Shown: positions 1 to 61,946 of the stretch, piece by piece | Layout of the letters: every line of letters starts with the position of its first letter | Position numbering within the stretch: the first letter of the stretch is position 1 | Source of the DNA: an uncultured virus (IMG/VR IMGVR_UViG_3300014039_000035) | Lineage: Duplodnaviria > Heunggongvirae > Uroviricota > Caudoviricetes | Reading direction: 5' to 3' (one strand) | IMG/VR virus record: IMGVR_UViG_3300014039_000035 | DNA: 64,000 nt | Translations under genes and position numbers: made by a program | The notes under the pieces: model-generated | The model's database searches: none | What the model was told of the DNA's origin: nothing | Seen by the model: the letters and a program-made list of their open reading frames with translations, nothing else

Positions 1-88
1 AAAACCGCCACGACAACGGTCACGGAAGAGACCAACCCCGAAAAGACACCGGTTGACAACAACGCTTCCGGAAAATCAATACAGAACT

Positions 89-125: not shown

Positions 126-166
126 CGTAATATGTTCATACACACGTCTAACCCATCGGTTAAACA

Positions 167-511: not shown

Positions 512-523
512 TAACTATTTGAA

Positions 524-690: not shown

Positions 691-820
691 TGACTACTCC
701 CACAGCTAAAGCAGTGGGGTTCTTGGGGCAGGCACGGAGCTTCCTCCCACCTTATGCCCACAAAGGGCTAGTCCTTCCCTCGCTATAATCCCACCATTAA
801 AATAGTGGGTTTTCTCGCTT
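691..820 (-). mobile_element. non-autonomous IS200/IS605-type miniature element (PATE-like)
   Basis: Two related hairpins CCCAC-N10-GTGGG (699-718, 790-809); minus strand ends ...GTGGGAGTAGTCA like IS605-group right ends; no ORF. Confidence 0.6.
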
Positions 821-845
821 ATTTCTCATAATGTATTCATTTTCT

Positions 846-1912: not shown

Positions 1913-1913
1913 T

Positions 1914-3330: not shown

Positions 3331-3339
3331 GACACAAAG

Positions 3340-4871: not shown

Positions 4872-5212
4872 GCTTCATTCAATTCCACCAGAAACCAGTA
4901 GTCATCGACAAATCCCAGCCGACTGTTCCACATCGACCGGATGTTCACGAAAGGGAAGCCGAAACGCTGCCGGCACACGCAGTCCAGCTCGCCGTCGTAC
5001 ACGCCTCCCTTGTTGTTCCACGCCGCCACGAAACGGGGGCGCATCCTCTTGCCGTCAAGAGTCTCGAACAGCACGTCAACCTCGGCCTTTCTTACCCAGA
5101 ACGCGTCTTCCACGGCGTTTCTTGGCAGAAGCAGGGCGTCCGCGCCTCTTGCCTGCACGCGAAACGCGCGGGTCTCTATACACCTCGGCGGCCGGCTCTC
5201 GCTCTTCCTCAT
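4868..5212 (-). CDS. hypothetical phage protein
   Basis: Stop overlaps the helicase ATG (ATGA). Confidence 0.55.
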   Translation of the reverse strand: MRKSESRPPRCIETRAFRVQARGADALLLPRNAVEDAFWVRKAEVDVLFETLDGKRMRPRFVAAWNNKGGVYDGELDCVCRQRFGFPFVNIRSMWNSRLGFVDDYWFLVELNEA

Positions 5213-5573
5213 CTTGCTTGTCTATTACCACAAAAATACACTTGTCCTCAAAAAACACATCCTTGCCGTACCCTTCCATCCGGGCGTTCAGAAGCCACTT
5301 CTGGTACGCTATCCTCCACGCCACGCCGTAGCGGATCCGGCAAAGCAAATCGCAAAGGTCACCCTCAACCACCATCGCCTTGATGATGCGGCAGTCCGGG
5401 CCGTTGAAAAGACGAAGACGGTCGCCCCGCCTCGCCTTCAACACGCAGGCCGTCTTATCGTAGAAAAGGCCGTAGGGAAGCAGTATGTAGTCCAGACGGA
5501 ACTCGCCCGGCTCCTCGTGGCCCGTGCGGAACAGCTTCGGCTTCCTATCCTCTATGTCTATGCCCAGTCCCAC
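5076..5573 (-). CDS. hypothetical phage protein
   Basis: 165 aa ORF starting immediately after the methyltransferase stop. Confidence 0.55.
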   Translation of the reverse strand: MGLGIDIEDRKPKLFRTGHEEPGEFRLDYILLPYGLFYDKTACVLKARRGDRLRLFNGPDCRIIKAMVVEGDLCDLLCRIRYGVAWRIAYQKWLLNARMEGYGKDVFFEDKCIFVVIDKQDEEEREPAAEVYRDPRVSRAGKRRGRPASAKKRRGRRVLGKKGRG

Positions 5574-5574
5574 A

Positions 5575-6300
5575 CTAAAACAAACTCCCTTGCTCTATCC
5601 TGTGACCGCCGATGTCCTGCACGCCGTGGCACACACGCTCGAAGCGCTCCACCGACTTGTCGAAATATTCCTTGTCTATCTCTATGCCCGTGAAGTCCAA
5701 GTCCAGACCGTACGCAGCTATCCTTGACGAGCCGCTTCCAAGGTGCGTGTCAAGAACCCTGTCCCCCGGCTTGGCGAACTGCTTGAAGACCCAAGAATAC
5801 AACGCCACCGGCTTCTGCGTCGGGTGGAAACGCTGCTCCTTCGCGCTTCCCTGCGGCGCGCACTCGAACACCTTGGCGTTGCCGTTGAAACTTGTCCACG
5901 CGTACTCCGCCATGGCCATACTGAAACTTTCCGAAATGGTCAGCTTGCGCCAGACCAAAAAGCATCTTGTCGGAGGAAGCGAGAAGTAGTTCCCGCCCCA
6001 GATGACCTGATTCTTCGCGACACGGAAAAGCTCCCTGAAATATTCCTCGCCGGGTGCCACGTCCCAGCCTATGATTTTTTTCCGCACTTCGCCGACCAGC
6101 TGCCGCCCGTCCTTGTAACGGTCGAACCTTTGGCCGAAACGCCCCCCCCCATTGATACTGAGGTCGTTAGCGCCACCGTACGGCGGGTCAACCACAGCCA
6201 AATCAAAGCTCTTGTCCGGCTGATTCCTCAGGAACTCCAGACAGTCCATGTTGTAGACTTGACTCTTCATTTTCATTCGATTCTTTTTTGATTTCTTCAA
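5575..6300 (-). CDS. N6-adenine/N4-cytosine DNA methyltransferase (beta class)
   Basis: DPPY, HPTQKP, DTHLGSGSS, GIEID motifs. Confidence 0.92.
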   Translation of the reverse strand: MKKSKKNRMKMKSQVYNMDCLEFLRNQPDKSFDLAVVDPPYGGANDLSINGGGRFGQRFDRYKDGRQLVGEVRKKIIGWDVAPGEEYFRELFRVAKNQVIWGGNYFSLPPTRCFLVWRKLTISESFSMAMAEYAWTSFNGNAKVFECAPQGSAKEQRFHPTQKPVALYSWVFKQFAKPGDRVLDTHLGSGSSRIAAYGLDLDFTGIEIDKEYFDKSVERFERVCHGVQDIGGHRIEQGSLF

Positions 6301-6910
6301 TATCCCTTCTCACCTGGAACGTGAACCTCTGTCTGCCCCGCCACTTCCTTGTCAGGTCGTGTATCGCCCTCGCGTACTGCTCGAACGCTATGATGCTGAA
6401 ATCGCGCTCGTCCTCCGGCACCCTCCGGTACTCGAATGCGAACATATGCATATCAGACACGTAGTCCGTGCTGACCATCCTCAATGCCAGCTTGCCGTCC
6501 GGACTCCACCGAACCCTCGGCGTGGACATGAACGCGTCTATCGCCCTCGGCTCCGGCCTTTTAAGCCACTCGGACATCCCTTTCAGATAGAAGCGCATAC
6601 AGTACGGAAGGAAGTACCACAGATGGTTCTGACGGATGATCTCGTAGATGTAGAACTCCGCGAACTCGTTCATACCGCGCTCCTTCGCCCAGCGGTACAT
6701 AAGGAAACGCCATGTCTCCCAGTCAAGGTCGCCCGGCTCGCCAAGGACGGCGAACTTCCACGAGACCGTGTGCTCCTCAAGGAAGTTACGCACCTCGTAG
6801 TCGTCGCCGCGCTCGCAAGCGTCCCAGACCCCCCGCTTGTAGCAGTAGTCGAAGAAACGCACTATCGCAGGAGCGCTCCGCCTGTTCAGCGGCGTCCTGT
6901 ACTCGTACAT
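6203..6910 (-). CDS. hypothetical phage protein
   Basis: Long aromatic-rich ORF; ATG at 6910 overlaps the end of the upstream ORF. Confidence 0.6.
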   Translation of the reverse strand: MYEYRTPLNRRSAPAIVRFFDYCYKRGVWDACERGDDYEVRNFLEEHTVSWKFAVLGEPGDLDWETWRFLMYRWAKERGMNEFAEFYIYEIIRQNHLWYFLPYCMRFYLKGMSEWLKRPEPRAIDAFMSTPRVRWSPDGKLALRMVSTDYVSDMHMFAFEYRRVPEDERDFSIIAFEQYARAIHDLTRKWRGRQRFTFQVRRDIEEIKKESNENEESSLQHGLSGVPEESAGQEL

Positions 6911-7134
6911 CTTCCTGTCGGCCTCCGGGGGCCTTCTTCTCTGACCAAAACCCACGTTAATTCCTCCTCGTTGTCCATCAACCAGCTCAGCATCTCGAAA
7001 TACAAGCCGATGGAGCACCCCGGCATAGGAAAGAGCCTCGCGCTCCCGTCCTCGCCCTGCCGGAGACGCCCCATTCGGCGACCGTCAACACTGATATAAA
7101 AATTATCCAGTAACACTTTTCTTCTCTTTTTCAA
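6886..7134 (-). CDS. hypothetical protein
   Basis: 82 aa ORF filling the operon gap. Confidence 0.45.
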   Translation of the reverse strand: MKKRRKVLLDNFYISVDGRRMGRLRQGEDGSARLFPMPGCSIGLYFEMLSWLMDNEEELTWVLVREEGPRRPTGRCTSTGRR

Positions 7135-7864
7135 CCTTCACCAACCTGCCGTCCACAAGCTCCCAGCCCTCCTTCATCTTGGAAGGGTTCATGTCCGAGT
7201 CTATGAACGCGTCGAAAAGAAGCACCCTGCGGCGCATATCCTCGATGCTTTCGGCGTAGTCCTCCCTGCGGAAACGGAACACTACGCCGCGCCAAGGGGC
7301 GAGCAGAGAGTCCAAGTCCTTCATTATGTCATCCCTAACGGGAGCGTACTTCACAAGCACCACGCTCTTAACCTTCGGATTCGACAGGAACAGCCCAAGA
7401 ATCTGCGGGCCGTGGTCCTTGAACACACGGAAGGACTTCTCCTCGCCGCTTGTCCGCTCGTCGCAGAAGAACTCGACCGTCTCGTTCCCGACCATCGTCT
7501 TGAACTCCAGGACAACGCTATCATCCTCGGAATAGGCGTCCGGACTCGCCCCGAACATCGGCATACCCTCCGGAATCCAGAAAGGCACCTCCGGAAGGTC
7601 CTTCGAGTACACGAAACGCGCCGCCTTGCACTCCGGAAGATTCCCGACCGCCCAGCGGAAGATGTCCGGCTCGGTCTCGTTGCCGATGTCCATAGCCCTT
7701 GCCGAAACGGGCAGGGAGAACCCGTGACGCCGCTCGAATCTCTTCGCCCGGACATACGACACGTTACTGTCTATAACCTTGCCGGAAGCCGACACCAGCT
7801 GCCCCAGCTCGCTCGCGGTTATCCGCCCGCAGCGCTTCTCCATCCAGACCTCGTTCTTGTCCAT
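7103..7864 (-). CDS. YqaJ/lambda-exonuclease-like recombination nuclease
   Basis: W...RCGRITASE, G...EP, GASPD, LEFK motifs. Confidence 0.9.
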   Translation of the reverse strand: MDKNEVWMEKRCGRITASELGQLVSASGKVIDSNVSYVRAKRFERRHGFSLPVSARAMDIGNETEPDIFRWAVGNLPECKAARFVYSKDLPEVPFWIPEGMPMFGASPDAYSEDDSVVLEFKTMVGNETVEFFCDERTSGEEKSFRVFKDHGPQILGLFLSNPKVKSVVLVKYAPVRDDIMKDLDSLLAPWRGVVFRFRREDYAESIEDMRRRVLLFDAFIDSDMNPSKMKEGWELVDGRLVKVEKEKKSVTG

Positions 7865-7866
7865 CG

Positions 7867-8493
7867 CTATTCAGGCAAATCGTCACTCTCCTGCGGCTTG
7901 GCGGCTATCCCGTCAGCCACCGCGTCCTCCACCGTCTGGCTCTCGAAGTCGTAACGCTCCTTTATCGCCGCCATGTCAAGGCCGTTCTTCAACGCCCAGT
8001 CCACGATGACACCGACCTTGTCCTCGGTTATGACCTTTTTCGCGGCAGGAGCCTGTGCGGGTGCGTAGCCGTTCTCGACAAGCCACTGCTGCATCTCCTC
8101 TACCGAGGCCGCCGGATAGCGGCTGATGCGGAGGCCGTAGGTGGTCCCGCCGTTTTGTACATCGCGTGCCTCCTCTTTGGTCAGCCTGACCGGAATGTTG
8201 TGGAGCAAGTCAATCCTACCCTCGCAAGGACGTCCGTCCTCAACGATGTCGTTCCAGTGCGCCTTGGCAATCCGGGTTCGGTTCGTAACATTTCCGACCA
8301 TGCTCTTTTCCGTAAAAGGATTCGGTGCGAACTTGAACAACCACACGTCTTTTTCCTGTCTTCCGTTCACTCGCAGGCTTTCATGAAATTCGATGCTTTC
8401 GATGATTATGCGAGGAATGTCTTGCCCACCGGGCAGCATATCCACGCTCGCATAGTCACTTTTCGTGCCTTTCTTGTAATAAGTCCCTAACAT
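7867..8493 (-). CDS. putative ssDNA-annealing/binding partner of the exonuclease
   Basis: Adjacent to YqaJ; NVTNR motif; acidic tail DDLPE. Confidence 0.5.
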   Translation of the reverse strand: MLGTYYKKGTKSDYASVDMLPGGQDIPRIIIESIEFHESLRVNGRQEKDVWLFKFAPNPFTEKSMVGNVTNRTRIAKAHWNDIVEDGRPCEGRIDLLHNIPVRLTKEEARDVQNGGTTYGLRISRYPAASVEEMQQWLVENGYAPAQAPAAKKVITEDKVGVIVDWALKNGLDMAAIKERYDFESQTVEDAVADGIAAKPQESDDLPE

Positions 8494-8568
8494 TTGTTTT
8501 GTTTTTAGTCTGTTCCGCCGATATGGCTTCACTTCGTATCTTTTCCTCTTACAAATTCTGTGCCCTAA

Positions 8569-9138
8569 TTATCTATCTTCATATCTCCAAAAATACCCGC
8601 CAGCCGTTCTGTTAGGATTTAGGCAAGCTCTTGATATATTACTAATGCCAGTCTCACGGCCAGCTTCAAGAGTGCCATAAAAAGAGCGTATAAAATTACC
8701 ATCCAAACTATATTGAGAAACCTTTTTTGAATTTGGACATAATTTTCCAGTTTTCCCACGGGCAGCATCCGAAGTATGTTTTATAGCAAGCTCAAAATTA
8801 CTATTCTCTTTTGGTGTACACCATCTTAGATTTTCTACTCTATTATTTCTTCTATCCCCGTCAATATGATCAATAAACGGCTTATTATGTGGATTTGGAA
8901 TAAATGCCGTACCCACAAGAGTGTGCACGAGCTTATATTTCTTTCCTGACGAATTGGATAAGGATACGAACTCGTAACCTCGGTTTTGAACAGCAGTTTT
9001 GAGGATTCGTTCTTTAACCGTAATCCTTTTTCCATTTCCCTGCACAATGACTCTCGTCAAGCTTTTTACTCGGCCCAAATTACTTACATCATAAAATCCC
9101 TCGTAACCAACAACCGGTTTCCAAATTTCTGTTTCCAT
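8569..9138 (-). CDS. NUMOD4-HNH-NUMOD1 homing endonuclease
   Basis: EIWKPVVGYEGFYDVSNLGRVKS, VHTLV, DHIDGDRRNNRVENLRWCT; AT-rich relative to flanks. Confidence 0.93.
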   Translation of the reverse strand: METEIWKPVVGYEGFYDVSNLGRVKSLTRVIVQGNGKRITVKERILKTAVQNRGYEFVSLSNSSGKKYKLVHTLVGTAFIPNPHNKPFIDHIDGDRRNNRVENLRWCTPKENSNFELAIKHTSDAARGKTGKLCPNSKKVSQYSLDGNFIRSFYGTLEAGRETGISNISRACLNPNRTAGGYFWRYEDR

Positions 9139-9151
9139 TTTTAGTAAAACA

Positions 9152-9252
9152 ATCCCCAGCGTTCAAATAGCGGTGGAAGCACTATTCTACTAACAGGGGA
9201 TGCTAATTGTCTATTTTGCTATCTTCCACATAGCAATAACTATGCAAAAATA
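9152..9252 (-). promoter_or_regulatory. TAnnTTTG promoter plus kissing-loop leader of the HNH gene
   Basis: TATTTTTG at 9252-9245; hairpin loops GTGGAAG and CTTCCAC are complementary. Confidence 0.7.
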
Positions 9253-9264
9253 ATAGTTATCAGA

Positions 9265-13253: not shown

Positions 13254-13436
13254 CGAGCGGCGCGCAAGGGACTCGAACCCTCCGGGGGACCTGAAATCCC
13301 CACGCGCCGGAGCGGCTGCCGAGGATGGGGCTATGAAATTTACGCCCGGTACCCCGCTCGGATCGGAGGGCAGAATTCCTTCGGGGAAACCCTCCTCACT
13401 CATCCACGGCCTGACCAAGACGGTGTGCGCCGCCCG
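13254..13436 (-). ncRNA. about 183-nt tRNA-like structured leader RNA
   Basis: T-arm GAGGG-TTCGAGT-CCCTT; 3' GCGCGCCGCTCG pairs with 5' CGGGCGGCGCAC. Confidence 0.55.
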
Positions 13437-21967: not shown

Positions 21968-22722
21968 ACATCAAGCCGATAGGCGATTCAAGGCCGTATG
22001 TCTTGTGGCGAAGGGTTTCCACGCAGGAGCAGGAGGTCTCTGGCCTTGGCTTGGAGGCGCAGTTGACCATAGCGAAGATGTTCATGGCAAGGGAGCCTGT
22101 GGCGGTGTTCACGGATGTCCATTCAGGAACGAAGTTGAAGGAGTGTGACCAGCTGTGGGAGGCGATACGCTACTGCAAGGCAAATGATTACGTCCTTTGC
22201 ATAGCGAAGAGTGACCGTCTGAGATCAGTGTCTGAGGCCTTGGACATTATAGACGCGATGGGCGAGCGCAATGTTGTGATATGCGATTTGCCTACTTGCG
22301 ACAGGTTTGTGCTGACCATCATGTTCGCGGTTTGGGAACGTCAGGCGCAGATGATACAGATAAACACACGTCTTGCGTTGGCGGAGCGTCAGAGACAGAT
22401 TGAGGTCAACGGCGGATTTTTCTCGAAGTCCGGTCGCTGGGTGAAGAAACTTGGCAGTCCAAAGGGTTATATGCCACGTCAGGCGATAGTTGCGGCAAAT
22501 GAGGCGTCAGCGGCCAAGGCGGTCGAATGGCGCAAGGAGTCACCTCTTTTCGCTTGGGTCGAGTTGCAGGTTTTCAAGCACCGGGCGAGGGTTGACATTC
22601 TGGCGGATGCGCAGGAACTTTACCGCAAGCATCCGGAGAAGTACGGTACACGCAACGGATGTCCGCTGAGTAAGGGTATATTAAGCAAGTGGATAAAGAT
22701 AATACAATTAAGCAATGACTAA
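21940..22722 (+). CDS. serine recombinase (resolvase family)
   Basis: RVSTQEQ..SGLGLEAQ, D..SG, K.DRL, ER..I..NT..AL. Confidence 0.9.
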   Translation: MWKRKSRKIDIKPIGDSRPYVLWRRVSTQEQEVSGLGLEAQLTIAKMFMAREPVAVFTDVHSGTKLKECDQLWEAIRYCKANDYVLCIAKSDRLRSVSEALDIIDAMGERNVVICDLPTCDRFVLTIMFAVWERQAQMIQINTRLALAERQRQIEVNGGFFSKSGRWVKKLGSPKGYMPRQAIVAANEASAAKAVEWRKESPLFAWVELQVFKHRARVDILADAQELYRKHPEKYGTRNGCPLSKGILSKWIKIIQLSND

Positions 22723-23017
22723 AATGAAATTAAGTGAAATGGATTTTGAGAGCGTTGTTAAGGCTCTTAAAAAGAAAGAAAAATCATTCTATATGCACTA
22801 TAATGCGAGTGATGAAATCGCACTGGTGGTAAGCCAAAAGTCGTTAGAAACAGTTAAGGACAATTTGAGGTCTAAATATGGTGATGTCGAGGTTGAACTT
22901 TATCCGGAAGCGTGTTGGTCAAGACAGGTCACCATTAAGGACGAGAAGTTCCAAAAAGACCTCGACGAATACTATAAACGCAAAAGCGCGTGGTGCGCCA
23001 AATATGGTTGTGACTGA
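22715..23017 (+). CDS. hypothetical protein
   Basis: 100 aa ORF ending WCAKYGCD. Confidence 0.65.
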   Translation: MTKMKLSEMDFESVVKALKKKEKSFYMHYNASDEIALVVSQKSLETVKDNLRSKYGDVEVELYPEACWSRQVTIKDEKFQKDLDEYYKRKSAWCAKYGCD

Positions 23018-23279
23018 TGTGTAGGTTATTCAAGGTTTAAGCCACGGTCCGGCACGAGGACTGGAATGGTGAAGTGTACAGCATATCGATAGAATGTGAC
23101 TGCTGGGCAAATAATGAAGAAGAAGCAAAAAATCTTGTCGAGGAATATCCCTTCGATACATACAAAGGTATGGATTTTGTAGGTGTTACGGTGGACACCG
23201 TGAAATTCGTGTCGGACTCGTTCGAGGACAATTACCCTCCAGCGATGACGAACTGGGAATATACGGTTTAAGAAAAAAC

Positions 23280-23391
23280 TCCCCGAAGAGCCGGATAGGA
23301 TGCTCCGGCAACGAAGGATGAAGACGCCCTGTGACACACTTCATCCGAAGCGTAGGACGGCAGTGTGGTTCGATTCCACACCGGGGAGCCA
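23280..23391 (+). ncRNA. tRNA-like RNA A (CCA-encoded, non-canonical core)
   Basis: Acceptor TCCCCG/CGGGGA-G-CCA, T-arm TGTGG-TTCGATT-CCACA, 6-bp D-like stem, 8-bp third stem. Confidence 0.7.
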
Positions 23392-23465
23392 CTCAAAGTC
23401 TTGGCAGACTTTCTTGGGGTCCTGAGAAAACCAACTGAAAAGTGTAGCGGTGTGAATCGCGAACA

Positions 23466-23570
23466 ATGCCGGGAGAAGGCCGTCACGGGACGGCAGGGAA
23501 TACGTGAATATAGCCAAAAACACAATCACGATGAATGTTTGAAAAGGCGGTTCGACTCCGCGCCCGGCAT
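23466..23570 (+). ncRNA. tRNA-like RNA B
   Basis: ATGCCGGG/CCCGGCAT closing stem, GCCGTC/GACGGC hairpin, CGTGA/TCACG hairpin, GCGG-TTCGACT-CCGC T-arm. Confidence 0.6.
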
Positions 23571-23595
23571 CAAGTTTATTGTTTAATTTATAGTT

Positions 23596-24096
23596 ATGAA
23601 AGAAGCAAAAGAATTGAATCTCTGCGAGATTCTCAAAGATTGCCCGAAAGGGACTAAATTATATACGCCGCTTTATGGTGTATGTAGTTTATATTCGGTT
23701 GATGACAAATTCATAACAATCGATTATGTCGGAGAGGTAAATATAATCTGTAATGAGACATTTTTCGCTAATGGAACAATCTCCACTTTAGGTGATGAAT
23801 GCCTATTGTTTCCCTCCAAAGATAACCGTGACTGGTCTACTTGGAAGAATCCAAAGCCAAAGGTTGAACGTTTTAACCCGAAGACGTTTGAGCCGTTCGA
23901 CAAGGTGCTGGTAAGAGAGGATGATGAAGATTGTTGGATACCAACCTTTATTAGTTATTTTGATAGGTGGCTAAAAAAGATAATTACGGTATCTGACCAA
24001 GCGTATAGTCGAGTCATCCCTTACAACGACGACACCAAGCATCTTATTGGTACGTGTGATGAGGCTCCGGAGTATTACAGATATTGGGAGAATTAA
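23596..24096 (+). CDS. conserved Bacteroidales phage protein
   Basis: LNLCEILKDCPKGTKLY, LFPSK..RDW, FEPFDKVLVR, IPYN..TKHLIGT. Confidence 0.75.
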   Translation: MKEAKELNLCEILKDCPKGTKLYTPLYGVCSLYSVDDKFITIDYVGEVNIICNETFFANGTISTLGDECLLFPSKDNRDWSTWKNPKPKVERFNPKTFEPFDKVLVREDDEDCWIPTFISYFDRWLKKIITVSDQAYSRVIPYNDDTKHLIGTCDEAPEYYRYWEN

Positions 24097-24098
24097 TC

Positions 24099-24362
24099 AT
24101 GATTTGGATTTGTATAATAATAGGCTTGATTTCTTTTGCTGGTCTTGTATATTCAATAATAGAAACAGATGGTTTTGCAATACTTGCTATTTTTTCTGTA
24201 TTTGGGTTAATATGCTCATTTGTCGGAATATTAGATTTATCTTCAGAGAAAAATAAATCTTATGAATATTCAGCAACTGAATACACTCTCGAATACAAGG
24301 TAACTACTATTGGAGAGCAGAGTGATACTACTTATGTATTGACAAAAATTAAAGAAGATTAG
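24099..24362 (+). CDS. small membrane protein
   Basis: Two hydrophobic helices. Confidence 0.6.
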   Translation: MIWICIIIGLISFAGLVYSIIETDGFAILAIFSVFGLICSFVGILDLSSEKNKSYEYSATEYTLEYKVTTIGEQSDTTYVLTKIKED

Positions 24363-24520
24363 GATATGAATTATACAGTGAAATTTTTTAGTCCATTAAG
24401 AAATGAAATAATGTTTCGTAAAATAGAGGCTAACAATGCTGAAATAGCACAAAAAACGATACAAATGTACTATAAAGTGCCTGAAAAAGATATTTTATCA
24501 ATCATCGAGGAGGATTAATT

Positions 24521-24703
24521 ATGGCATGGATAGCAAGAGATGGAAATCTCAATTTATGTATTTTCGACGATATGCCGGAAAGGTGTGTTTCAAGGGCGGT
24601 ATGGATTCCCTTTTATGGAGAAATCACAAATTTTATAGAACTTCCCTCCGATGCTGATGAAAAGTTAATTGGAAGACATATCACTTGGGGATATCAGCAG
24701 TAG
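24521..24703 (+). pseudogene. small phage gene truncated by the TnpB element (original end EDEPVEI* at 26543-26566)
   Basis: Removing 24689-26542 restores ...GRHITW-EDEPVEI* in frame. Confidence 0.8.
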
Positions 24704-24783
24704 ATAAAAAAATACTCAAAAATATCTAAAATTATTTAAACATATTATTAACATTTTTCAAAATTGATACTATTTATATTTAG

Positions 24784-24883
24784 AAAACAAAAGTCAGACG
24801 TTGTTTTGGAATATTAGAGAAATTTAAGTTACAATACCTTCATGGCATCGTCTGACTTTAGTGCCAAGAAGGTTTTGTAACTT
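24784..24883 (+). promoter_or_regulatory. kissing-loop leader of tnpB
   Basis: Loops AAGTCAGACG (24791-24800) and CGTCTGACTT (24849-24858) are 10/10 complementary. Confidence 0.7.
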
Positions 24884-24894
24884 TTTTTATTTTT

Positions 24895-26535
24895 ATGATT
24901 ATTGACAGCAAATATACAAAAGTGTTCGTCTCCGATGATATAACCCGTTTGAAATATAACGAGTTACACGATGTTGCTGTCAATATCAGAGACCATAAGA
25001 ACAAGGTATCTGAATTCGTTTCCCATAACCTCCTAAAATATTTGGATTATTCCAATCTGACGTTTATGAAGGAAATGAGAACTGAATTCAAAAACCAAGT
25101 GGGTTCTTCGTTTGATGCTCAACTCTATACACAAGTACTGACTTGTTATCAAAACAAATTTGATAACATAAGAAAAAATCTTACTTTTGAAAAAGTCACT
25201 TATTCCCATTGTGAACTCTACAAAAGGAGCATCAAGATAAACAAGAAAGGTGATTTCAAAAAAGTAGTTAACAAACACGAAACCACAAGGTTGTCCATCT
25301 GTTTAAGTTACCTTGCACGATACGGGAATGATAATACCGTTGAATATATTAATTCTCAGATGCCTACTTGTGATGATAATAAGAAAGGCTATTACCAATC
25401 CATTTTGGATTGCTGCTCCAAGTTTGGATTCGAGCGATTGATGGGATTGGCGATGCAGAAACGTCAGCGAGCAATAGACAGATACAAGGATAACCCCATC
25501 GAATTCAAATCCCTTACATTCAGTGGCAGAAGCCGTAAAAAGAAAATCCTCGATTGGAACAAGAACTACAATTCTGAGATTAACGCATTCGTATCATTGT
25601 CAGGATTTGATAGGAAATCCATGGATATCCCCGTTAAATTTGCAAAGGATTACCACGGCTCGATGGGTGATTATTTCAAGGCGAATCCTGATTACGAATA
25701 CACCATTGTATTCAATGAACGAAAGAAATCGGTATCCATCAATCTTTGTAAGGACGGTGAAAGGTTTATCCCGGAGGCGGGTAATAACCTTATCGGGATT
25801 GACGTAAATTGCAAGCATAACTTATTCTCATTATCAGATAACTCTACGTATGATTATGACCGTCAGTTGGTTAATGATTATTGTAGGTTAGCGTTGGATA
25901 TAGATAAACGCAAGAAAAAGGATAAGGAGTACCAACCGGGAAAGAGAACCCAATGGAAACTGGATACCCTCAAAAAGAAAATGGACAAATCCGAGCAGAA
26001 CCTCATTGCCTTGATGTGCAAACAATTGGCATCAGAGGGATATAACCACATAGTGATGGAGGATTTGGATAATGGATTCGGAAAATGCTTTGTTAAGGAT
26101 AAGGATAATGAGGATATCAACTATAACCGCAAGGTCAAATTTCTTGGATTGTCAAGCCTCAAGAATGAGGTGGAGCATATTGCGAGGAACTACGGAATAG
26201 CGTTGTCCACGGTGCAAGCGAGTTACACGTCCAAGATGTGCCCAATATGCGGCTGTATCGAGGACGAGAACCGTCCCGACCAAGAGACATTCTGTTGCGT
26301 TGAATGTGGTCATTCAAGCAATGCTGATTTCAATGCGTCGGTGAATATAAGGAACAGAGTCAGCGAAGCCGTGCTTCGAGATAGGCTCTTAAAACAAAAG
26401 GATAATGGTGCCTACGAACCTAAAAAGATGAAAAGAGAAAAGGTTAAGGAGGTATTGTTATCGTTTCGGAAACACCTGCAAAAGGCAGGGAGTGAATGTA
26501 TTCAAACGGAGTTAAACACTTTTGAATATGTTTAA
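24895..26535 (+). CDS. tnpB: TnpB-family RNA-guided endonuclease (546 aa)
   Basis: RuvC GIDVN / VMEDL / NADFNA, YTSKMCPICG...CVECG zinc ribbon. Confidence 0.93.
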   Translation: MIIDSKYTKVFVSDDITRLKYNELHDVAVNIRDHKNKVSEFVSHNLLKYLDYSNLTFMKEMRTEFKNQVGSSFDAQLYTQVLTCYQNKFDNIRKNLTFEKVTYSHCELYKRSIKINKKGDFKKVVNKHETTRLSICLSYLARYGNDNTVEYINSQMPTCDDNKKGYYQSILDCCSKFGFERLMGLAMQKRQRAIDRYKDNPIEFKSLTFSGRSRKKKILDWNKNYNSEINAFVSLSGFDRKSMDIPVKFAKDYHGSMGDYFKANPDYEYTIVFNERKKSVSINLCKDGERFIPEAGNNLIGIDVNCKHNLFSLSDNSTYDYDRQLVNDYCRLALDIDKRKKKDKEYQPGKRTQWKLDTLKKKMDKSEQNLIALMCKQLASEGYNHIVMEDLDNGFGKCFVKDKDNEDINYNRKVKFLGLSSLKNEVEHIARNYGIALSTVQASYTSKMCPICGCIEDENRPDQETFCCVECGHSSNADFNASVNIRNRVSEAVLRDRLLKQKDNGAYEPKKMKREKVKEVLLSFRKHLQKAGSECIQTELNTFEYV

Positions 26536-26669
26536 GTTTTCGGAGGATGAACCAGTAGAAATTTAGAGTTATGAAAACAAAAGAACAAATACTTAAATGG
26601 CTTGACAAGCAGCCTTGGAAGAATGAATTTTACAGACTTGTTGGAAACCGCTAAACCGTTGTTGTAATT

Positions 26670-27091
26670 ATGACTATCGAAGAAAAAGCAAAAGAGTACG
26701 TAGAGACTTGTATTGATGATGACCCAGTAAATCCATTTGCTGCAATAGCCAGAGTTGAAGGAAGAGATGCGTTTAAGCGAGGCGCACAATGGATGCTTGA
26801 AAAAGCAAAGTTGTGGCTAATTAAAAATCTTAAATACACCGACGATATATCTAATTTTCAAAAAGCTATGGATGAATAGTTATGACGGAAGACGAATTGA
26901 TATTTCATGATTTACTTATGGCTACACATACAGTCAAAGCAGTAGAAAAAGCACGTAAAGAGGTGATTGAAAAGGCTGCTAATTGGTTTACAAATTATCT
27001 TGCAGAAATAGGTTATCCAGATGATTGGATAAGAGACTCAAAAGTACAACAAAGCGGAATGGAAAGATTTCGTAAAGCAATGGAGGAATAA
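26670..27091 (+). other. two small related ORFs (26670-26879, 26882-27091)
   Basis: Both contain EKA..W and end F.KAM.E. Confidence 0.6.
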
Positions 27092-27092
27092 T

Positions 27093-27454
27093 ATGAAACA
27101 GTTTAGTTTAGAGGAATATCTCAAGAACCCCAACAGGAGGATTATTACAAGAGACGGCAGAAAGGCGAGGGTTATTTGTACTAACAGAAGCAGCGTATAT
27201 CCTATTGTAGCCCTTGTTGATAATGGTATCGAAGACATATATATATATATAGCGAAACAGGTATCTGTTCGGAAGGTCGTGACAAATTAGACCTCTTATT
27301 CGCGCCAGAAAAGCATATGGGTTGGATGAATATATACAAAGCCGCGTACAGCCCTATTGGGGGCGGGGTGTATGGTTCAAAAGAAGAAGCGGAGAGAAAT
27401 ATAGGTTTCAACCAAGACTATATCAATACATGTAAAGTAGAATGGGAGGAATAA
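27093..27454 (+). pseudogene. phage protein frameshifted at an (AT)7A microsatellite
   Basis: Deleting one AT unit at 27237-27251 joins MKQFSLEEYLKNP... to ...LDLLFAPEKHMGWMNIY...KVEWEE*. Confidence 0.75.
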
Positions 27455-27456
27455 TT

Positions 27457-27867
27457 ATGAAAGTATCAGAACTTCAATTAGGCGACATCGTTAGTTGCCT
27501 TGACGACCCCGTGAGGGTCGTGTCGTTAAGCCTCAAAGACGATGAGCCTATCGGCATAATGTCACCTTTAAAGACGATAGAGACGTTCAGGGAGGAGGAT
27601 GTCAAGCCTTTACCTCTAACGTCTAAAATCTTGTTGGCTAACGGATTTGAATTTGACGAAGAGGTAAAGCGCGGATATGTCCTATATCTCGACGAGGGTA
27701 AGACGTGGTATGTGGCGGTATCGCTCAGATATAATGACGAGCCACGTATGACCGAGATTAGTTTCGAGAGATGTGGAGTTGTAAAACCGATACAATACGT
27801 TCACGAGTTGCAGCACGCCCTGCGCTTGGTTGGACTTAATGATTTGGCGAAAAACCTTAAAGTATGA
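27457..27867 (+). CDS. YopX-like phage protein
   Basis: ELQLGD, PLPLT..IL..NGF, IQYVHELQHAL. Confidence 0.7.
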   Translation: MKVSELQLGDIVSCLDDPVRVVSLSLKDDEPIGIMSPLKTIETFREEDVKPLPLTSKILLANGFEFDEEVKRGYVLYLDEGKTWYVAVSLRYNDEPRMTEISFERCGVVKPIQYVHELQHALRLVGLNDLAKNLKV

Positions 27868-28166
27868 AGTGGGTTAAATTAGCGGAGATGATACCGCTTG
27901 ACGCACCTTGCGAGTGCCCCTACGATTGCAGGGGCTGCGAGCATCTGAAAGGAGTTGTGTTTCACGGTAACGATGATGTCGAGGTCGAGTGCGACTTGGA
28001 CGAGGAGGACTGGCAATGACGGTAAAGGAACTTATAGCGGCCTTGCAGGCGATGCCGCAGGACAGCGAGGTGGTGATGTTCGATGGGCCGAGCCAGTACA
28101 CCCCGTGCAAGGTCTATGTGGCAGAGTGGGGAGGAAAGGGCATCAAGGGGAACGTGGTGATTGATT

Positions 28167-28182
28167 AGGCACGTTTCTTGCA
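28167..28182 (+). promoter_or_regulatory. sigma-54-like -24/-12 promoter
   Basis: AGGCAC-GTTTC-TTGCA with exact GG-N10-GC spacing, intergenic. Confidence 0.45.
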
Positions 28183-28278
28183 GGTAAACGAATACCGCTT
28201 TTGCCGCCGAAGTGTGTTTCAAGCCAAGCCATTCAACATAGATAAAGGGAAGGGGCGGCCTTCCCTTAACTTTTAGAC

Positions 28279-28941
28279 ATGGGTAAAAAAGAGAAAAAAT
28301 GCTCCTTGTTCGAGGAGATGCTGATGTGGACTTCCTACCGTTATGCGATAGGAAGCAAGACATACGTGTCGTGTCTCGCCTACGAGATACCACAACACTA
28401 CTATCACAGGCTGACACCGGAAAGACGGCAGTTCACTGCGTATGACATACGCAGGGAGATATACGAGCGCTTGCGGATAGTGTTGCCGTTCGGGTTCAGA
28501 ATAGACCGGATGACAGATAAGGACAAACTCAATCCACTTGAAACGCTGTTCACTTTCTTTAATAGTGAAGTAGACTCGTTTGACGTGATGCAGACCTTGG
28601 CAAACCTTGTATATGACGCTCATTCCAATACATACAAGGTCGAAGAAAAGAAACCAATCTTCGAAAGTTCATTTTCTGTCAGCGACATCAACCACTTTAT
28701 ACCGTGGGAGACGTTCGCAAGTTGTTTCGACGATTCGGAGCATATAGTGGTAAACGGAAAGACGCTGTTCAAGACTTGGCAGCGAAAACTCGTCCCGGTT
28801 CCCGGCAAAGAATGTTGTTTTAGACAAGACAATTTCGGCTGGGAGCCAATATGGTATGACTTGGATAACTTCCTCGCAAACGGAGAGTATTCCGGGTATT
28901 GGACTGAAAAGGAGTTGGAAGAATGGCGAAAGTCGAAATAA
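28279..28941 (+). CDS. hypothetical protein
   Basis: 220 aa, SYRYAIGSKTY motif. Confidence 0.7.
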   Translation: MGKKEKKCSLFEEMLMWTSYRYAIGSKTYVSCLAYEIPQHYYHRLTPERRQFTAYDIRREIYERLRIVLPFGFRIDRMTDKDKLNPLETLFTFFNSEVDSFDVMQTLANLVYDAHSNTYKVEEKKPIFESSFSVSDINHFIPWETFASCFDDSEHIVVNGKTLFKTWQRKLVPVPGKECCFRQDNFGWEPIWYDLDNFLANGEYSGYWTEKELEEWRKSK

Positions 28942-29240
28942 ATCCGGGCGACCGTTTCGGCCACTGGGTTGTCCAGTCTTTCGCAGGATCAAAACTGCCG
29001 AGCAAGAACGCACCTTCCAAGTGCAAATATTTTCTTTGCAAATGTGACTGCGGAACAATCAGAGAGGTTAAAGGCTCGGACTTGAAGCGTGGCGTGTCGG
29101 AGAGCTGCGGATGTCTGAAAGGCGAACGCAGGTGGCACAAGGAAATCAAGTGGGAGCCGAGGGTAGCGGAGATTAAAGCGAAGCCGTACAGGCCGAAGCA
29201 CCCCGAAATGTTTAATGATGACTGGATGTTTAGTTTTTGA
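28923..29240 (+). CDS. Cys-rich domain protein (CKCDCG...SCGC, as found N-terminal to phage HNH/AP2 proteins)
   Basis: GDRFGHWVV, CKCDCG, SCGC. Confidence 0.7.
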   Translation: MAKVEINPGDRFGHWVVQSFAGSKLPSKNAPSKCKYFLCKCDCGTIREVKGSDLKRGVSESCGCLKGERRWHKEIKWEPRVAEIKAKPYRPKHPEMFNDDWMFSF

Positions 29241-61830: not shown

Positions 61831-61933
61831 TAACTTTGTTCCGTGTCGAGGTCCAGACGACAAAAGAAGAAAGTTATACGTCCCCCGTGCGAGTACGTCT
61901 GTGCTGGACCCACCGACCGAAAACACGAGGGAC
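61831..61933 (+). promoter_or_regulatory. TAACTTTG promoter plus kissing-loop leader of the endonuclease gene
   Basis: Loops GGTCCAG (61850-61856) and CTGGACC (61904-61910) are complementary. Confidence 0.7.
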
Positions 61934-61946
61934 TTTTTGTGTTATC

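What the first reader, a model, noticed from the sequence alone, without database searches (positions are those of the whole stretch)
24784..24894. Kissing-loop leader RNA, copy 2, inside the TnpB element
Seen: AAAACAA-[AAGTCAGACG]-TTGTTTT, a spacer, then a long hairpin AAGTTACAA..CCTTC.TGGCA-[..CGTCTGACTT..]-TGCCA.GAAGG..TTGTAACTT, a U-tract and the ATG. The loops are 10/10 complementary. The topology matches the leaders at 9152 and 61844 although the nuclease family and the sequence are unrelated. Inference: a portable expression-control module shared among selfish phage nucleases.
Basis: partly seen in the sequence, partly recalled or inferred. Interest (0 to 1): 0.8.

Follow-up and report, generated by a model that had tools for sequence, protein, structure and literature searches.

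The report
Kissing-loop leader RNA before phage tnpB
Just upstream of a phage-borne TnpB nuclease gene lies a conserved two-hairpin RNA leader whose two loops are kept complementary to each other in many relatives although their sequence keeps changing, which looks like a built-in throttle on a selfish gene.

Summary
Window 24784-24894 holds a small hairpin (24784-24807), a long terminator-like hairpin (24826-24883), a T-run and the ATG (24895) of a 546-aa TnpB. The loops are 11/11 complementary. The same architecture precedes tnpB in 18 of 71 distinct upstream regions of relatives. In the 17 compared, cognate loops pair over 8-11 nt using 13 different core sequences. None of 264 non-cognate pairs reaches 8 nt. 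On a covariance-model alignment of 15 sequences, 28 of 31 base pairs show compensatory changes, including 7 of 8 loop-loop pairs. G·U (17) outnumbers A·C (3), which points to the sense-strand RNA. The leader lies inside the left end of a tnpA-less IS607-type element (about 24688-26544). The same roughly 200-nt left end also heads a barely related 418-aa TnpB. Looser versions of the topology precede the window's HNH gene and its 390-aa zinc-finger gene, each backed by only one or two homologues. It matches no Rfam family, and my paper searches found no description. Function is inferred, not shown: most likely an attenuator or throttle of tnpB expression, possibly with the short terminated leader acting in trans (as in P1 c4, P4 CI or IsrK).

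The parts
24688..26544 (+). tnpA-less IS607-type TnpB element: left end, leader, tnpB, right end
   Evidence: In blastn of window 24000-27500 against the stored loci, similarity starts at 24687/24688 (L001, L012) and nearly all alignments end at 26544-26551. The terminal motif GGGATA-N4-CAG is conserved in most leader-bearing loci. Relatives L017, L052, L067, L078, L079 and L081 carry a tnpA ORF directly upstream of tnpB. I read it by eye as an N-terminal helix-turn-helix plus a serine recombinase; it was not scanned against a family library.
24769..24779 (+). Conserved box ACTATTTATAT a few nt upstream of hairpin 1; putative promoter or transcript-start element
   Evidence: It is near-invariant across the leader-bearing loci. 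It is not a general motif of the window: 1 exact and 3 one-mismatch matches against 1.67 expected. Its function is inferred.
24784..24807 (+). Hairpin 1 (HP1): 7-bp stem with 10-nt loop AAGTCAGACG
   Evidence: Six of its 7 stem pairs show changes on both sides in 15 sequences, and 96.1% of cells are paired (helix 1).
24790..24800 (+). segA: 11 nt complementary to segB
24808..24825 (+). A/T-rich single-stranded spacer between the hairpins
   Evidence: A spacer of 16-25 nt is present in all relatives.
24826..24883 (+). Hairpin 2 (HP2): long imperfect hairpin (21 bp) with a 14-nt loop; terminator-like
   Evidence: Helices 3 and 4 are 100% and 88.5% paired, and 15 of their 16 pairs show compensatory changes.
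24849..24859 (+). segB: 11 nt in the HP2 loop, complementary to segA
   Evidence: Seven of 8 kissing-helix pairs are compensatory (helix 2).
24884..24894 (+). T-run (TTTTTATTTTT) between HP2 and the start codon
   Evidence: T columns are invariant in the 16-sequence alignment. Every tnpB-adjacent hit of the locus scan carries a tail with at least 6 T in 9.
24895..26535 (+). tnpB, 546 aa; D303/E389/D478 and the CxxC..CxxC cysteines are conserved
   Evidence: Pfam PF07282 at 1.3e-15. There are 80 related loci.
9139..9260 (-). Analogous leader of the HNH-NUMOD gene (8569-9138, minus strand). HP1 is GCTAT[GTGGAAG]ATAGC (9218-9234). HP2 spans about 9151-9202 with CTTCCAC in its apical loop.
   Evidence: z = -2.5. 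Homologue L124 has CGCTTA[TCCACCAC]TAAGCG with GTGGTGG in its HP2. Homologue L109 has a 9-nt complement to its terminator loop.
61844..61946 (+). Analogous leader of the 390-aa DUF4379/CapR/DUF723 gene (ATG at 61947). HP1 is TGTCG[AGGTCCAGA]CGACA (61844-61862). HP2 spans 61880-61933 and is followed by T5. CTGGACC lies at 61904-61910.
   Evidence: z = -1.5. In homologue L137/L138 (44% identity) the loops are conserved and both stems are replaced compensatorily.

Best explanation
The stretch is the structured 5' leader of the tnpB transcript. It is encoded inside the left end of a tnpA-less IS607-type element.

Shown. The RNA (sense strand) forms a small 5' hairpin and a long hairpin that ends in a U-run 11 nt before the AUG. 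The loop of the first hairpin is kept Watson-Crick complementary (8-11 nt) to the loop of the second in all relatives that carry the leader, while the actual sequences differ.

Inferred. The second hairpin plus U-run is an intrinsic-terminator-like attenuator, so most transcripts started at the conserved box end as a leader RNA of about 100 nt. Only read-through transcripts carry tnpB. The loop-loop pairing sets the balance between the two outcomes.

In minimum-energy folds of the nascent RNA, the long-range segA:segB helix forms before the 3' arm of HP2 exists. That helix is sterically hard to reconcile with closing the apical stem of HP2. It could therefore delay terminator folding and favour read-through, after which the RNA settles into the more stable two-hairpin kissing form. 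That form also places a rigid structure next to the start codon.

The net effect would be low, self-limited expression of a selfish nuclease inside a phage operon. The direction of the effect (more or less termination) is not known.
For: Anatomy.

Conservation: 18 of 71 distinct tnpB upstream regions carry the architecture.

Loop specificity: 17 of 17 cognate loop pairs match over at least 8 nt, using 13 different cores. Among 264 non-cognate pairs the maximum is 7 nt and the median 4.

Covariation: on the covariance-model alignment A7 (15 sequences), 90.9% of cells are paired against 64.2 +/- 1.5% in shuffles (0 of 500 as high). Twenty-eight of 31 pairs have changes on both sides. Slid controls give 33.5-49.6% paired. 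In the loop-loop helix, which the model does not encode, 7 of 8 pairs are compensatory.

Strand: G·U 17 against A·C 3 in the nested helices. The plus-strand fold is more stable in 13 of 17 leaders, and G·U pairs number 61 against 11.

Terminator features: a T-run follows HP2 in all leaders, and the start codon lies 9-20 nt downstream.

Nascent-RNA folds: the segA:segB helix is the minimum-energy structure in 16 of 17 leaders. The full-length RNA prefers HP1 plus HP2 (mean -27.5 kcal/mol).

Association: the covariance model finds the leader only directly upstream of tnpB genes. It gave 19 such hits in 409 kb and all 5 hits with E < 1 in 654 kb.

Not needed for transposition by TnpA: relatives that carry tnpA lack the leader.
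Against: No transcript data exist: no RNA run was listed. The transcript start, termination and read-through are therefore all unobserved.

HP2 is an atypical terminator. Its loop is 13-17 nt and the stem is imperfect and in this window AT-rich. The simple terminator scan did not list it.

The segA:segB helix pairs with the loop, not with an arm of the terminator. Classical antitermination logic therefore does not apply directly, and the lower stem next to the U-run could still form.

The U-run could equally be an unstructured A/U-rich translation-initiation region.

The conserved box matches no promoter consensus that I could recognise.

The nested helices in A7 were aligned to the model, which favours them.

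The kissing cores change at least as fast as unpaired spacer: 0.40-0.44 against 0.26-0.31 differences per site in two groups. A purely cis structural role does not predict this.
Confidence: 0.55

Rival explanations
1. Self-addressed trans-acting small RNA. The leader terminated at the U-run (about 100 nt) is itself the product. Because it carries both segA and segB, it can kiss nascent or read-through leaders of the same element in trans. This would make tnpB expression depend on dose or copy number. The variable loops would act as element-specific addresses that avoid cross-talk. This extends the best explanation rather than excluding it.
For: The layout is promoter-like box, hairpins, then U-run directly before the ORF.

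In two groups of close relatives the kissing core (0.40-0.44 differences per site), the HP1 stem (0.32-0.40) and the HP2 apical stem (0.42-0.50) vary as much as or more than unpaired spacer (0.26-0.31). The HP2 lower stem is almost fixed (0.06).

Between L012 and G003b the left end is about 85% identical by my estimate, yet 4 of 8 core positions differ, with matching changes in segB.

Two copies in one phage carry different loops: L010 GGAGAGAG and L013 GCAGAGAG; L003 GTGGAAGC and G003b GTGGACAG.

Precedents, read as passages only: the short IsrK RNA acts on its own read-through mRNA, and P4 CI RNA pairs with seqA and seqC of the same transcription unit (PMC4825925). P1 C4 antisense RNA is encoded in the same operon as its target (PMC8198154).
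Against: No RNA data. The variability analysis rests on 3-5 sequences per group, and a third group shows no such pattern. The two copies in phage G006 share identical loops (L009 and L054). L010 and L013 differ at only one core position, so their cross-complement is still 6 nt. No Rfam family matched, so there is no homology to any curated antisense RNA.
Confidence: 0.25
2. Passive RNA architecture. HP2 merely insulates the element from upstream phage transcription, or forms a stable 3' end for upstream messages. HP1 is a 5' stabiliser. The loop-loop pairing only compacts the fold against RNases, with no regulatory switching.
For: The element sits co-directionally inside phage gene or tRNA arrays. 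Full-length folds prefer the two-hairpin state in all 17 leaders. T4 free-standing endonuclease genes carry terminators and hairpins that simply lower their expression (PMC2988022, passages).
Against: It does not explain why an 8-11 nt loop-loop complement is maintained through at least 13 sequence replacements. It also does not explain why the nascent RNA favours the long-range helix in 16 of 17 leaders.
Confidence: 0.12
3. DNA-level element. The inverted repeats are transposase- or regulator-binding sites, or single-strand DNA hairpins used in transposition, as at IS200/IS605 ends.
For: The leader lies within the left end of the element. The HP2 lower stem is conserved in sequence within groups (0.06 differences per site).
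Against: The partner transposase of this family looks like a serine recombinase of the IS607 type (my reading of the ORFs printed). From established knowledge these act on double-stranded DNA.

Relatives that carry tnpA lack the leader. No copy of the motifs occurs at the right end or elsewhere in the loci. A protein site would not tolerate 13 unrelated loop sequences. The G·U over A·C asymmetry of 17 to 3 marks one strand. A T-run and a start codon follow in a fixed orientation.
Confidence: 0.04
4. Part of the guide-RNA system: a 5'-encoded TnpB-binding or guide-related RNA, or a target of the element's own omega RNA.
For: It is physically linked to tnpB in all strong hits. From established knowledge, pseudoknots are a feature of TnpB and Cas12 guide scaffolds.
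Against: From established knowledge, TnpB guide RNAs derive from the 3' end of the gene and the right end of the element. No third copy of either loop sequence occurs within 1.5-3 kb on either side, including the right end and its flank. Topologically similar leaders precede an HNH gene and a zinc-finger gene that use no guide RNA.
Confidence: 0.04

Closest known systems
Phage P1/P7 c4 antisense RNA and satellite phage P4 CI RNA (antisense RNA encoded in the same transcription unit, in the same orientation, as its target)
   Same: A stem-loop presents a short sequence that is complementary to a downstream segment of the same transcript and governs expression of the genes behind it. P4 CI RNA causes premature termination by pairing with seqA and seqC (PMC4825925, passage). 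C4 RNA is needed to block ant in the c4-icd-ant operon (PMC8198154, passages). From memory only: P1 and P7 differ in specificity through a few loop nucleotides with matching target changes, which resembles the covarying loops here.
   Different: There is no sequence or structure homology, since no Rfam family matched. Here the target lies in the loop of a terminator-like hairpin about 50 nt downstream, not at a ribosome-binding site or in flanking seqA and seqC. Processing and trans action are unknown. The regulated gene is a transposon nuclease, not an immunity gene.
IsrK of the Salmonella Gifsy-1 prophage (an RNA that is both a small RNA and the leader of its own mRNA)
   Same: One promoter gives a short RNA ending at an intrinsic terminator and a read-through mRNA. 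The short form base-pairs with the long form and changes its expression (PMC4825925, abstract and passages).
   Different: IsrK switches translation between two alternative structures. No hairpin-loop to hairpin-loop pairing is described there. The comparison is by analogy only.
Regulatory hairpins and terminators of T4-type homing endonuclease genes (I-TevI, segB, mobE, segF, seg43(25))
   Same: Selfish phage nucleases are kept low by RNA structure at their 5' ends. mobE and segF carry intrinsic terminators. seg43(25) has a very stable hairpin just upstream of, but not covering, its ribosome-binding site (PMC2988022, passages).
   Different: Most of those hairpins sequester the ribosome-binding site and are bypassed by an internal late promoter. 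Here the start codon is outside HP2, there is a second hairpin, and there is a covarying loop-loop pairing. No such pairing appears in the passages I read.
Transcription attenuators and riboswitch expression platforms
   Same: A terminator hairpin with a U-run sits directly before the ORF, with an upstream element that can pair with part of it.
   Different: There is no conserved unpaired core that could bind a ligand; the invariant columns are only two in the box and three in the T-run. The competing helix engages the loop, not a terminator arm.
Rfam RNA families, including the IS605-orfB-I/II motifs linked to tnpB
   Same: They are structured RNAs physically associated with tnpB (orfB) genes. 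I know them only by name from a search listing of the Rfam 15 paper.
   Different: No Rfam 15 family reaches its gathering score in the window. At E up to 10 in 24300-27300, only four chance-level hits appear, to unrelated families.

Membership tests
Intrinsic (Rho-independent) terminator | Stable stem-loop in the transcript | tested here: met
   HP2 has 21 bp and about -26 kcal/mol. Its stems covary (helices 3 and 4).
Intrinsic (Rho-independent) terminator | U-run immediately 3' of the stem | tested here: met
   TTTTTATTTTT at 24884-24894. T columns are invariant in 16 sequences. Every tnpB-adjacent hit has a tail with at least 6 T in 9.
Intrinsic (Rho-independent) terminator | Short loop (3-8 nt) and G+C-rich stem | tested here: not met
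   The loop is 14 nt here and 13-17 nt in relatives. The basal stem here is AAGTTACAA/TTGTAACTT. The consensus scan did not list it.
Intrinsic (Rho-independent) terminator | Transcripts actually end at the U-run | not testable with these tools
   No RNA run was listed.
Kissing-loop / loop-loop pseudoknot | Both complementary segments lie in hairpin loops | tested here: met
   (constrained folds of 17 leaders).
Kissing-loop / loop-loop pseudoknot | Complementarity is maintained by compensatory change | tested here: met
   17 of 17 cognate pairs reach at least 8 nt and 0 of 264 non-cognate pairs do. Seven of 8 pairs have changes on both sides.
Kissing-loop / loop-loop pseudoknot | The pairing forms physically while both stems are intact | not testable with these tools
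   An 8-11 bp helix in loops of 10 and 14 nt is sterically tight. The alternative is an extended helix with HP1 melted, which is the nascent minimum-energy structure in 16 of 17 leaders.
IS607-family TnpB element | TnpB with conserved acidic residues (read as the RuvC triad) and a zinc finger | tested here: met
   PF07282 at 1.3e-15. D303, E389, D478 and C449/C452/C468/C471 are invariant. Assigning the acidic residues to RuvC is my reading of the motifs.
IS607-family TnpB element | Serine-recombinase TnpA next to tnpB | tested here: not met
   It is absent from this element: 207 nt of non-coding left end lie upstream. It is present directly upstream of tnpB in relatives L017, L052, L067, L078, L079 and L081 (read by eye). 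This copy is therefore a tnpA-less derivative.
IS607-family TnpB element | Defined ends shared with relatives | tested here: met
   Similarity starts at 24687/24688 and ends at 26544-26551. The left-end motif GGGATA-N4-CAG is seen.
IS607-family TnpB element | Guide (omega) RNA at the 3' end and right end | not tested
   I only noted that the right end lies 9 nt after the stop codon.
P1 c4 / P4 CI type co-transcribed antisense RNA | Antisense segment and target lie in one transcription unit in the same orientation | tested here: met
   segA and segB are 56-60 nt apart start to start (48 nt in L003) on the same strand.
P1 c4 / P4 CI type co-transcribed antisense RNA | Processed, stable small RNA that acts in trans | not testable with these tools
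   No transcript data.
P1 c4 / P4 CI type co-transcribed antisense RNA | Homology to the known RNAs | tested here: not met
   No Rfam family matched. That Rfam holds models of these RNAs is recalled, not checked.
Riboswitch / ligand-sensing attenuator | Conserved unpaired nucleotides forming a binding core | tested here: not met
   Invariant columns are only two in the box and three in the T-run. The loops and spacer vary.
Riboswitch / ligand-sensing attenuator | Mutually exclusive terminator and antiterminator pairings | tested here: inconclusive
   The segA:segB helix wins in the nascent RNA in 16 of 17 leaders, but it pairs with the terminator loop, not an arm.
IS200/IS605-type subterminal DNA hairpins | Y1 transposase partner and a matching hairpin at the other end | tested here: not met
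   The partner in relatives looks like a serine recombinase (read by eye). No related hairpin or loop motif occurs at the right end.
T4-type ribosome-binding-site-sequestering hairpin of homing endonuclease genes | The hairpin covers the ribosome-binding site or start codon | tested here: not met
   HP2 ends 11 nt before the ATG, which lies in the U-rich single strand. Only the variant in L004/L076 places the complement on the start codon.

The most novel reading that the evidence does not exclude
The leader is a self-addressed RNA code for selfish genes. Each element makes an abundant terminated leader RNA whose two loops recognise the loops of nascent leaders of the same element only. The element would thus count its own copies or transcripts and gate nuclease expression accordingly.

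The hypervariable, co-evolving loop pair would be the equivalent of a plasmid incompatibility or phage immunity specificity. The whole left-end cassette of about 200 nt can be moved between unrelated nuclease genes: two TnpB families, and by convergence or ancient exchange also HNH and zinc-finger homing-type genes.
Probability: 0.2. Interest if true: 0.85.

Novelty: new variant of a known kind. Interest (0 to 1): 0.72.

Why it matters
TnpB is the ancestor of Cas12 and a genome-editing tool, yet how its natural expression is controlled is little studied. My full-text searches for TnpB with kissing, leader or terminator found no description of such a leader.

A compact natural leader of about 110 nt would offer two things. 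It is a new RNA family for regulating RNA-guided nucleases. It is also a ready-made set of orthogonal loop pairs: 13 natural specificities were seen here.

It also shows how transposon nucleases are domesticated inside large gut and rumen phages. The recurrence of the same topology before unrelated homing-type genes suggests a general solution to keeping a dangerous nuclease gene quiet inside a phage operon.

Tried and rejected
- **Rfam.** Nothing reached the gathering score in the whole window. At E up to 10 in 24300-27300 there were only four chance-level hits: Gut-1, tp2, mir-2970 and GA-cis.
- **Phage GenBank collection.** blastn of 23500-27500 found no match.
- **Own genome.** The assembly is not held. 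The nearest records, G001 and G002, hold no tnpB. G001 holds only the right flank, from 26490.
- **RNA runs.** None was listed.
- **Earlier findings of this scan.** None for this genome.
- **Third copy of the loops.** I looked for another copy of either loop sequence, as a guide or target idea, in the loci and in window 22001-29000. None was found.
- **The conserved box as a general phage promoter.** It is not enriched in the window. No convincing sigma-70-type promoter was found at the leader.
- **MAFFT plus RNAalifold on 16 leaders.** Only 5 pairs were recovered because the alignment was poor. I replaced this with a hand-annotated 5-sequence seed and a covariance model.
- **Relaxed descriptor (7-nt complement, weak tail).** It gave 25 real hits against 26 decoy hits, so it is uninformative. 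Its hits before the D5_N/DUF5906 gene (window 13258-13384) and others are not claimed.
- **MFE-based descriptors.** They miss the HNH and 390-aa leaders of the window.
- **Bacterial genome collection.** Three tnpB relatives were found, none with the leader.
- **Other canonical TnpB genes in phage G006 (409 and 419 aa).** They have a single AT-rich palindrome upstream, not this module.
- **Self-cleaving ribozyme, group I intron (IStron) and T-box.** I considered these and dropped them. There is no Rfam hit, no conserved core, and the left end is only 207 nt.
Full report
**1. The observation**

- Hairpin 1 (HP1): AAAACAA (24784-24790), loop AAGTCAGACG (24791-24800), TTGTTTT (24801-24807).
- An 18-nt A/T-rich spacer.
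- Hairpin 2 (HP2, 24826-24883): three stem segments (AAGTTACAA/TTGTAACTT, CCTTC/GAAGG, TGGCA/TGCCA) and a 14-nt loop, T-CGTCTGACTT-TAG.
- TTTTTATTTTT (24884-24894), then ATG at 24895.

The complementarity is 11/11: AAAGTCAGACG (24790-24800) with CGTCTGACTTT (24849-24859).

The RNA fold of 24770-24900 returns both hairpins as the minimum-energy structure (-33.7 kcal/mol, z = -4.68, 0 of 200 shuffles as good). The opposite strand folds less well (-27.9 kcal/mol).

The ORF 24895-26535 (546 aa) matches Pfam PF07282, the Cas12f1-like TNB domain, at E = 1.3e-15. In an alignment with three relatives, D303, E389, D478 and the CxxC...CxxC cysteines are invariant. I read the three acidic residues as the RuvC triad from their motifs (IDVN, MED, NAD).

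**2. Relatives**

The window's own assembly is not held, and the GenBank phage collection has no match. Protein-guided scans gave 4, then 11, viral loci and 69 metagenome loci with tnpB relatives at 31-97% identity. Many lie on phage contigs of 150-366 kb.

From 77 upstream regions, 71 are distinct. By inspection and scripts, 18 of those carry the same architecture. It runs in this order:
- a conserved box, ACTATTTATAT;
- HP1;
- an A-rich spacer of 16-25 nt;
- a long HP2;
- a T-run;
- a start codon 9-20 nt later.

The loop sequences are quite different from case to case. Examples are GTGGAAGC/GCTTCCAC, GCAGCAAGA/TCTTGCTGC, GGAGAGAG/CTCTCTCC, GTGAGGAGT/ACTCCTCAC, GTGGCACG/CGTGCCAC, AAATGGAACCC/GGGTTCCATTT, GTAAGAGA/TCTCTTAC, GTCGAAGT/ACTTCGAC and GTAGAATC/GATTCTAC.

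The remaining upstream regions have other contexts. Several relatives (L017, L052, L067, L078, L079, L081) have a tnpA ORF ending just before tnpB. I read it by eye as an N-terminal helix-turn-helix plus a serine recombinase, the IS607 arrangement. These relatives have no leader.

**3. Is the loop-loop pairing real?**

Four tests bear on this.

(a) Cognate against non-cognate loops. In 17 leaders the cognate loops share a perfect complement of 8-11 nt (17 of 17), with 13 distinct cores. Among 264 non-cognate combinations with different cores the maximum is 7 nt and the median 4. None reaches 8 nt.

(b) A covariance model. I built it from five hand-annotated leaders, encoding the nested stems only. 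It recovered the window's leader at E = 5.7e-6, and 19 leader hits in 84 sources totalling 409 kb. It missed L064.

On its 15-sequence alignment I counted the nested helices plus the loop-loop helix, written as a pseudoknot.
- 90.9% of cells are paired, against 64.2 +/- 1.5% in shuffles (0 of 500 as high).
- 28 of 31 pairs have changes on both sides.
- The covariation score is 0.700 against 0.216.
- Slid controls give 33.5-49.6% paired.
- The loop-loop helix has 7 of 8 compensatory pairs and 83.5% of cells paired. This is an underestimate, because some loops are misaligned.

The nested helices were fitted to the model, which favours them. The loop-loop helix was not part of the model.

(c) A strict descriptor. 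It was run over the window and three whole phage contigs (648 kb, both strands). It gave 4 hits, all directly upstream of tnpB genes, and 0 in reversed-sequence decoys. A relaxed version gave 25 real against 26 decoy hits and is uninformative.

(d) A search for other copies. No third copy of either loop sequence occurs in any locus or in window 22001-29000. The pairing is therefore internal to the leader.

**4. RNA or DNA, and which strand?**

In the nested helices, G·U cells number 17 and A·C cells 3. In strand-wise folds, G·U pairs number 61 on the sense strand and 11 on the antisense strand, and the sense strand is more stable in 13 of 17 leaders. The T-run and start codon always follow HP2 in the same orientation.

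The transposase of this family appears to be a serine recombinase (read by eye). From established knowledge of IS607, such enzymes act on double-stranded DNA. The relatives that carry tnpA lack the leader. The right end carries no related hairpin.

I conclude that the structure is selected in the sense-strand RNA.

**5. Where it sits**

blastn of 24000-27500 against all loci shows similarity starting at 24687/24688 and ending at 26544-26551, 9 nt after the stop codon. A terminal motif GGGATA-N4-CAG is shared by most leader-bearing loci. The leader therefore lies inside the 207-nt left end of a tnpA-less element of about 1857 bp.

The conserved box is not a general motif of this phage. No standard promoter was recognised there. 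Calling it a promoter is an inference.

**6. Portability**

In phage contig G003 a second strict hit (L164:12840-12962, minus strand) precedes a canonical 418-aa TnpB (HTH_OrfB_IS605 6.3e-17, OrfB_IS605 1e-19, TNB 1.2e-24). That protein shares only 28% identity over 109 aa with the 546-aa type.

Its left end plus leader aligns with that of L012 over about 200 nt, at about 85% identity by my estimate. The similarity stops at the start codon. The differences are concentrated in the kissing cores (GTGGACAG against GTGAGGAG, with matching changes in the partner) and in the apical stem of HP2.

In two groups of close relatives the differences per site are as follows.

| Region | Differences per site |
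|---|---|
| HP2 lower stem | 0.06 |
| Spacer | 0.26-0.31 |
| HP1 stem | 0.32-0.40 |
| Kissing core | 0.40-0.44 |
| HP2 top stem | 0.42-0.50 |

A third group is too diverged to show a pattern. The samples are small (3-5 sequences per group), so this is suggestive only.

Over 654 kb (three phage contigs plus the window), the model's 5 hits with E < 1 are all directly upstream of tnpB.

**7. The other two leaders of the window**

The HNH-NUMOD gene (8569-9138, minus strand) is preceded by GCTAT[GTGGAAG]ATAGC and a long hairpin with CTTCCAC in its apical loop. Its T-run is weak and the fold z-score is -2.5.

Among 47 homologue loci, most upstream regions lack the module. L124 (41% identity) has CGCTTA[TCCACCAC]TAAGCG with GTGGTGG in its second hairpin. 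L109 (36% identity) has a 9-nt complement (GCATTTACA/TGTAAATGC) to the loop of a strong terminator hairpin.

The 390-aa gene (ATG at 61947; Pfam DUF4379, CapR, DUF723 and a weak AP2 match) is preceded by TGTCG[AGGTCCAGA]CGACA and by GTCCCcCGTG...CACGaGGGAC followed by T5. The second hairpin's interior holds GTCTG-TGC-CTGGACC, and the fold z-score is -1.5.

Its 44%-identical homologue L137/L138 keeps the loops (GGTCCAG/CTGGACC) but replaces both stems compensatorily: GGTAA/TTACC and CCCACAAC/GTTGTGGG.

The topology therefore recurs before three unrelated gene families. The evidence for these two leaders is thinner, and they are not detectably homologous to the tnpB leader. Whether the 390-aa protein is a nuclease is not shown.

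**8. Mechanism**

Shown: a conserved sense-strand RNA with two hairpins and a covarying loop-loop pairing, a U-run, and an adjacent start codon.

Inferred: HP2 plus the U-run acts as an attenuator, and the loop-loop pairing tunes it.

In folds of the nascent RNA up to the end of segB, the long-range segA:segB helix, with HP1 melted, is the minimum-energy structure in 16 of 17 leaders. The full-length RNA prefers HP1 plus HP2 (mean -27.5 kcal/mol). An 8-11 bp helix through a 14-nt loop with 1-4 nt linkers cannot easily coexist with the apical stem of HP2. The helix could therefore delay terminator folding, a kinetic antiterminator, before the RNA relaxes into the kissing form.

There are points against this.
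- HP2 is an atypical terminator, with a large loop, and the consensus scan did not list it.
- The competing helix does not touch the basal stem next to the U-run.
- The U-run may simply be the translation-initiation region.

The rapid, compensated turnover of the loops fits better with a trans component. In that reading the terminated leader RNA acts on other leader transcripts with element-specific addressing. This resembles three known systems.
- IsrK, whose short form acts on its own read-through mRNA (PMC4825925, abstract and passages).
- P4 CI RNA with seqA and seqC (PMC4825925, passage).
- P1 C4 RNA within the c4-icd-ant operon (PMC8198154, passages).

A variant in L004/L076 places the complement of the HP1 loop (ATCTACAATC) once upstream of and once across the GTG start codon, with no enclosing terminator hairpin. 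That suggests the HP1 loop is a general internal antisense device. However, those two loci are near-identical and give no covariation.

T4-type homing endonuclease genes are also held down by 5' hairpins and terminators (PMC2988022, passages). None of the passages I read describes a loop-loop pairing.

**9. Novelty**

No Rfam 15 family matches. Full-text searches found no description. The term sets were:
- TnpB with kissing;
- homing endonuclease with kissing loop and terminator;
- TnpB, IS607, leader and terminator;
- loop-loop, antiterminator, terminator hairpin and pseudoknot;
- IS605-orfB.

The library lacks most subscription journals, so this is not proof of absence.

I class the leader as a new RNA family and a new variant of a known kind: a structured attenuating leader with internal antisense.

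**10. Verdict**

The key open questions are whether transcripts end at the U-run, in which direction the loop pairing pushes expression, and whether the short RNA acts in trans.

Noticed in passing
L050:1501-1512: This tnpB relative begins ATG ATA ATA TAG, where most relatives have M-I-I-Q with CAG. That suggests the phage reads TAG as glutamine (a recoded stop).
   Followed up: no
window 24521-24703: The small upstream ORF (60 aa) runs into the element's left end. Its last codons and its TAG stop (24701-24703) are supplied by the left end. L001 has a different upstream gene joined to the same left-end sequence.
   Followed up: partly
window 26490 (G001:C66:1): A contig of the nearest held genome starts, at 100% identity, 55 nt before the element's right end and continues through the right flank. 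This looks like an assembly break at a present/absent element.
   Followed up: no
window 1-9138 and 61947-64000; G002: The 15.9-kb viral record G002 carries the 390-aa gene and the HNH gene about 12 kb apart. In the window they lie near opposite ends (11.2 kb apart if the ends are joined), so the window may be circularly permuted.
   Followed up: no
L164:11267-15425 (phage contig G003): The leader-bearing 418-aa TnpB element sits inside a same-strand phage tRNA cluster (12 tRNAs in 8 kb). tRNA-Arg(tct) ends a few nt from its left end, and tRNA-Ser lies just after tnpB. A TnpB fragment nearby is also flanked by tRNA-like sequence.
   Followed up: partly
G006 (339 kb, direct terminal repeats), G003, G004, G007: Large phages carry several tnpB copies: G006 has 6 matches, two of them of the 546-aa type with identical leader loops. 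Two canonical copies in G006 (409 and 419 aa) instead have a single AT-rich palindrome (..TATATTTATATA..) upstream.
   Followed up: partly
G005:11651-11786 (L171): A DUF6291 gene is preceded by TGCGC[..CAGCTACAAT..]GCGCA and a strong hairpin (-28 kcal/mol) with GTAGCTG in its loop. The motif CAGCTACAAT recurs immediately at the ATG, so the hairpin loop could pair with either the upstream loop or the start region. The complement is only 7 nt, and hits of that class are as common in decoys.
   Followed up: partly
L004:2900-3010 and L076: Variant tnpB leader: GTGAG[aaATCTACAATCg]CTCAC, then GATTGTAGAT, then GATTGTAG-TG overlapping the GTG start. No terminator hairpin surrounds the complement.
   Followed up: partly
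L028:7-64: A second copy of the element's right-end sequence (83% identical to window 26487-26544) lies about 1.3 kb upstream of the tnpB start. This may be the end of a neighbouring element.
   Followed up: no
window 13258-13384 (minus strand): A G+C-rich two-hairpin arrangement with a 7-nt loop complement (CCCTCCG/CGGAGGG) lies 20 nt upstream of a D5_N/DUF5906 primase-helicase gene. Its T-run is weak, and hits of this class are as common in decoys.
   Followed up: partly
L079, L081, L052, L017, L078 upstream of tnpA: The sequence just upstream of tnpA in these IS607-type relatives looks coding. It shares a motif (..EELQK.V..AK..), which suggests a conserved target gene or a further element-borne ORF.
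   Followed up: no
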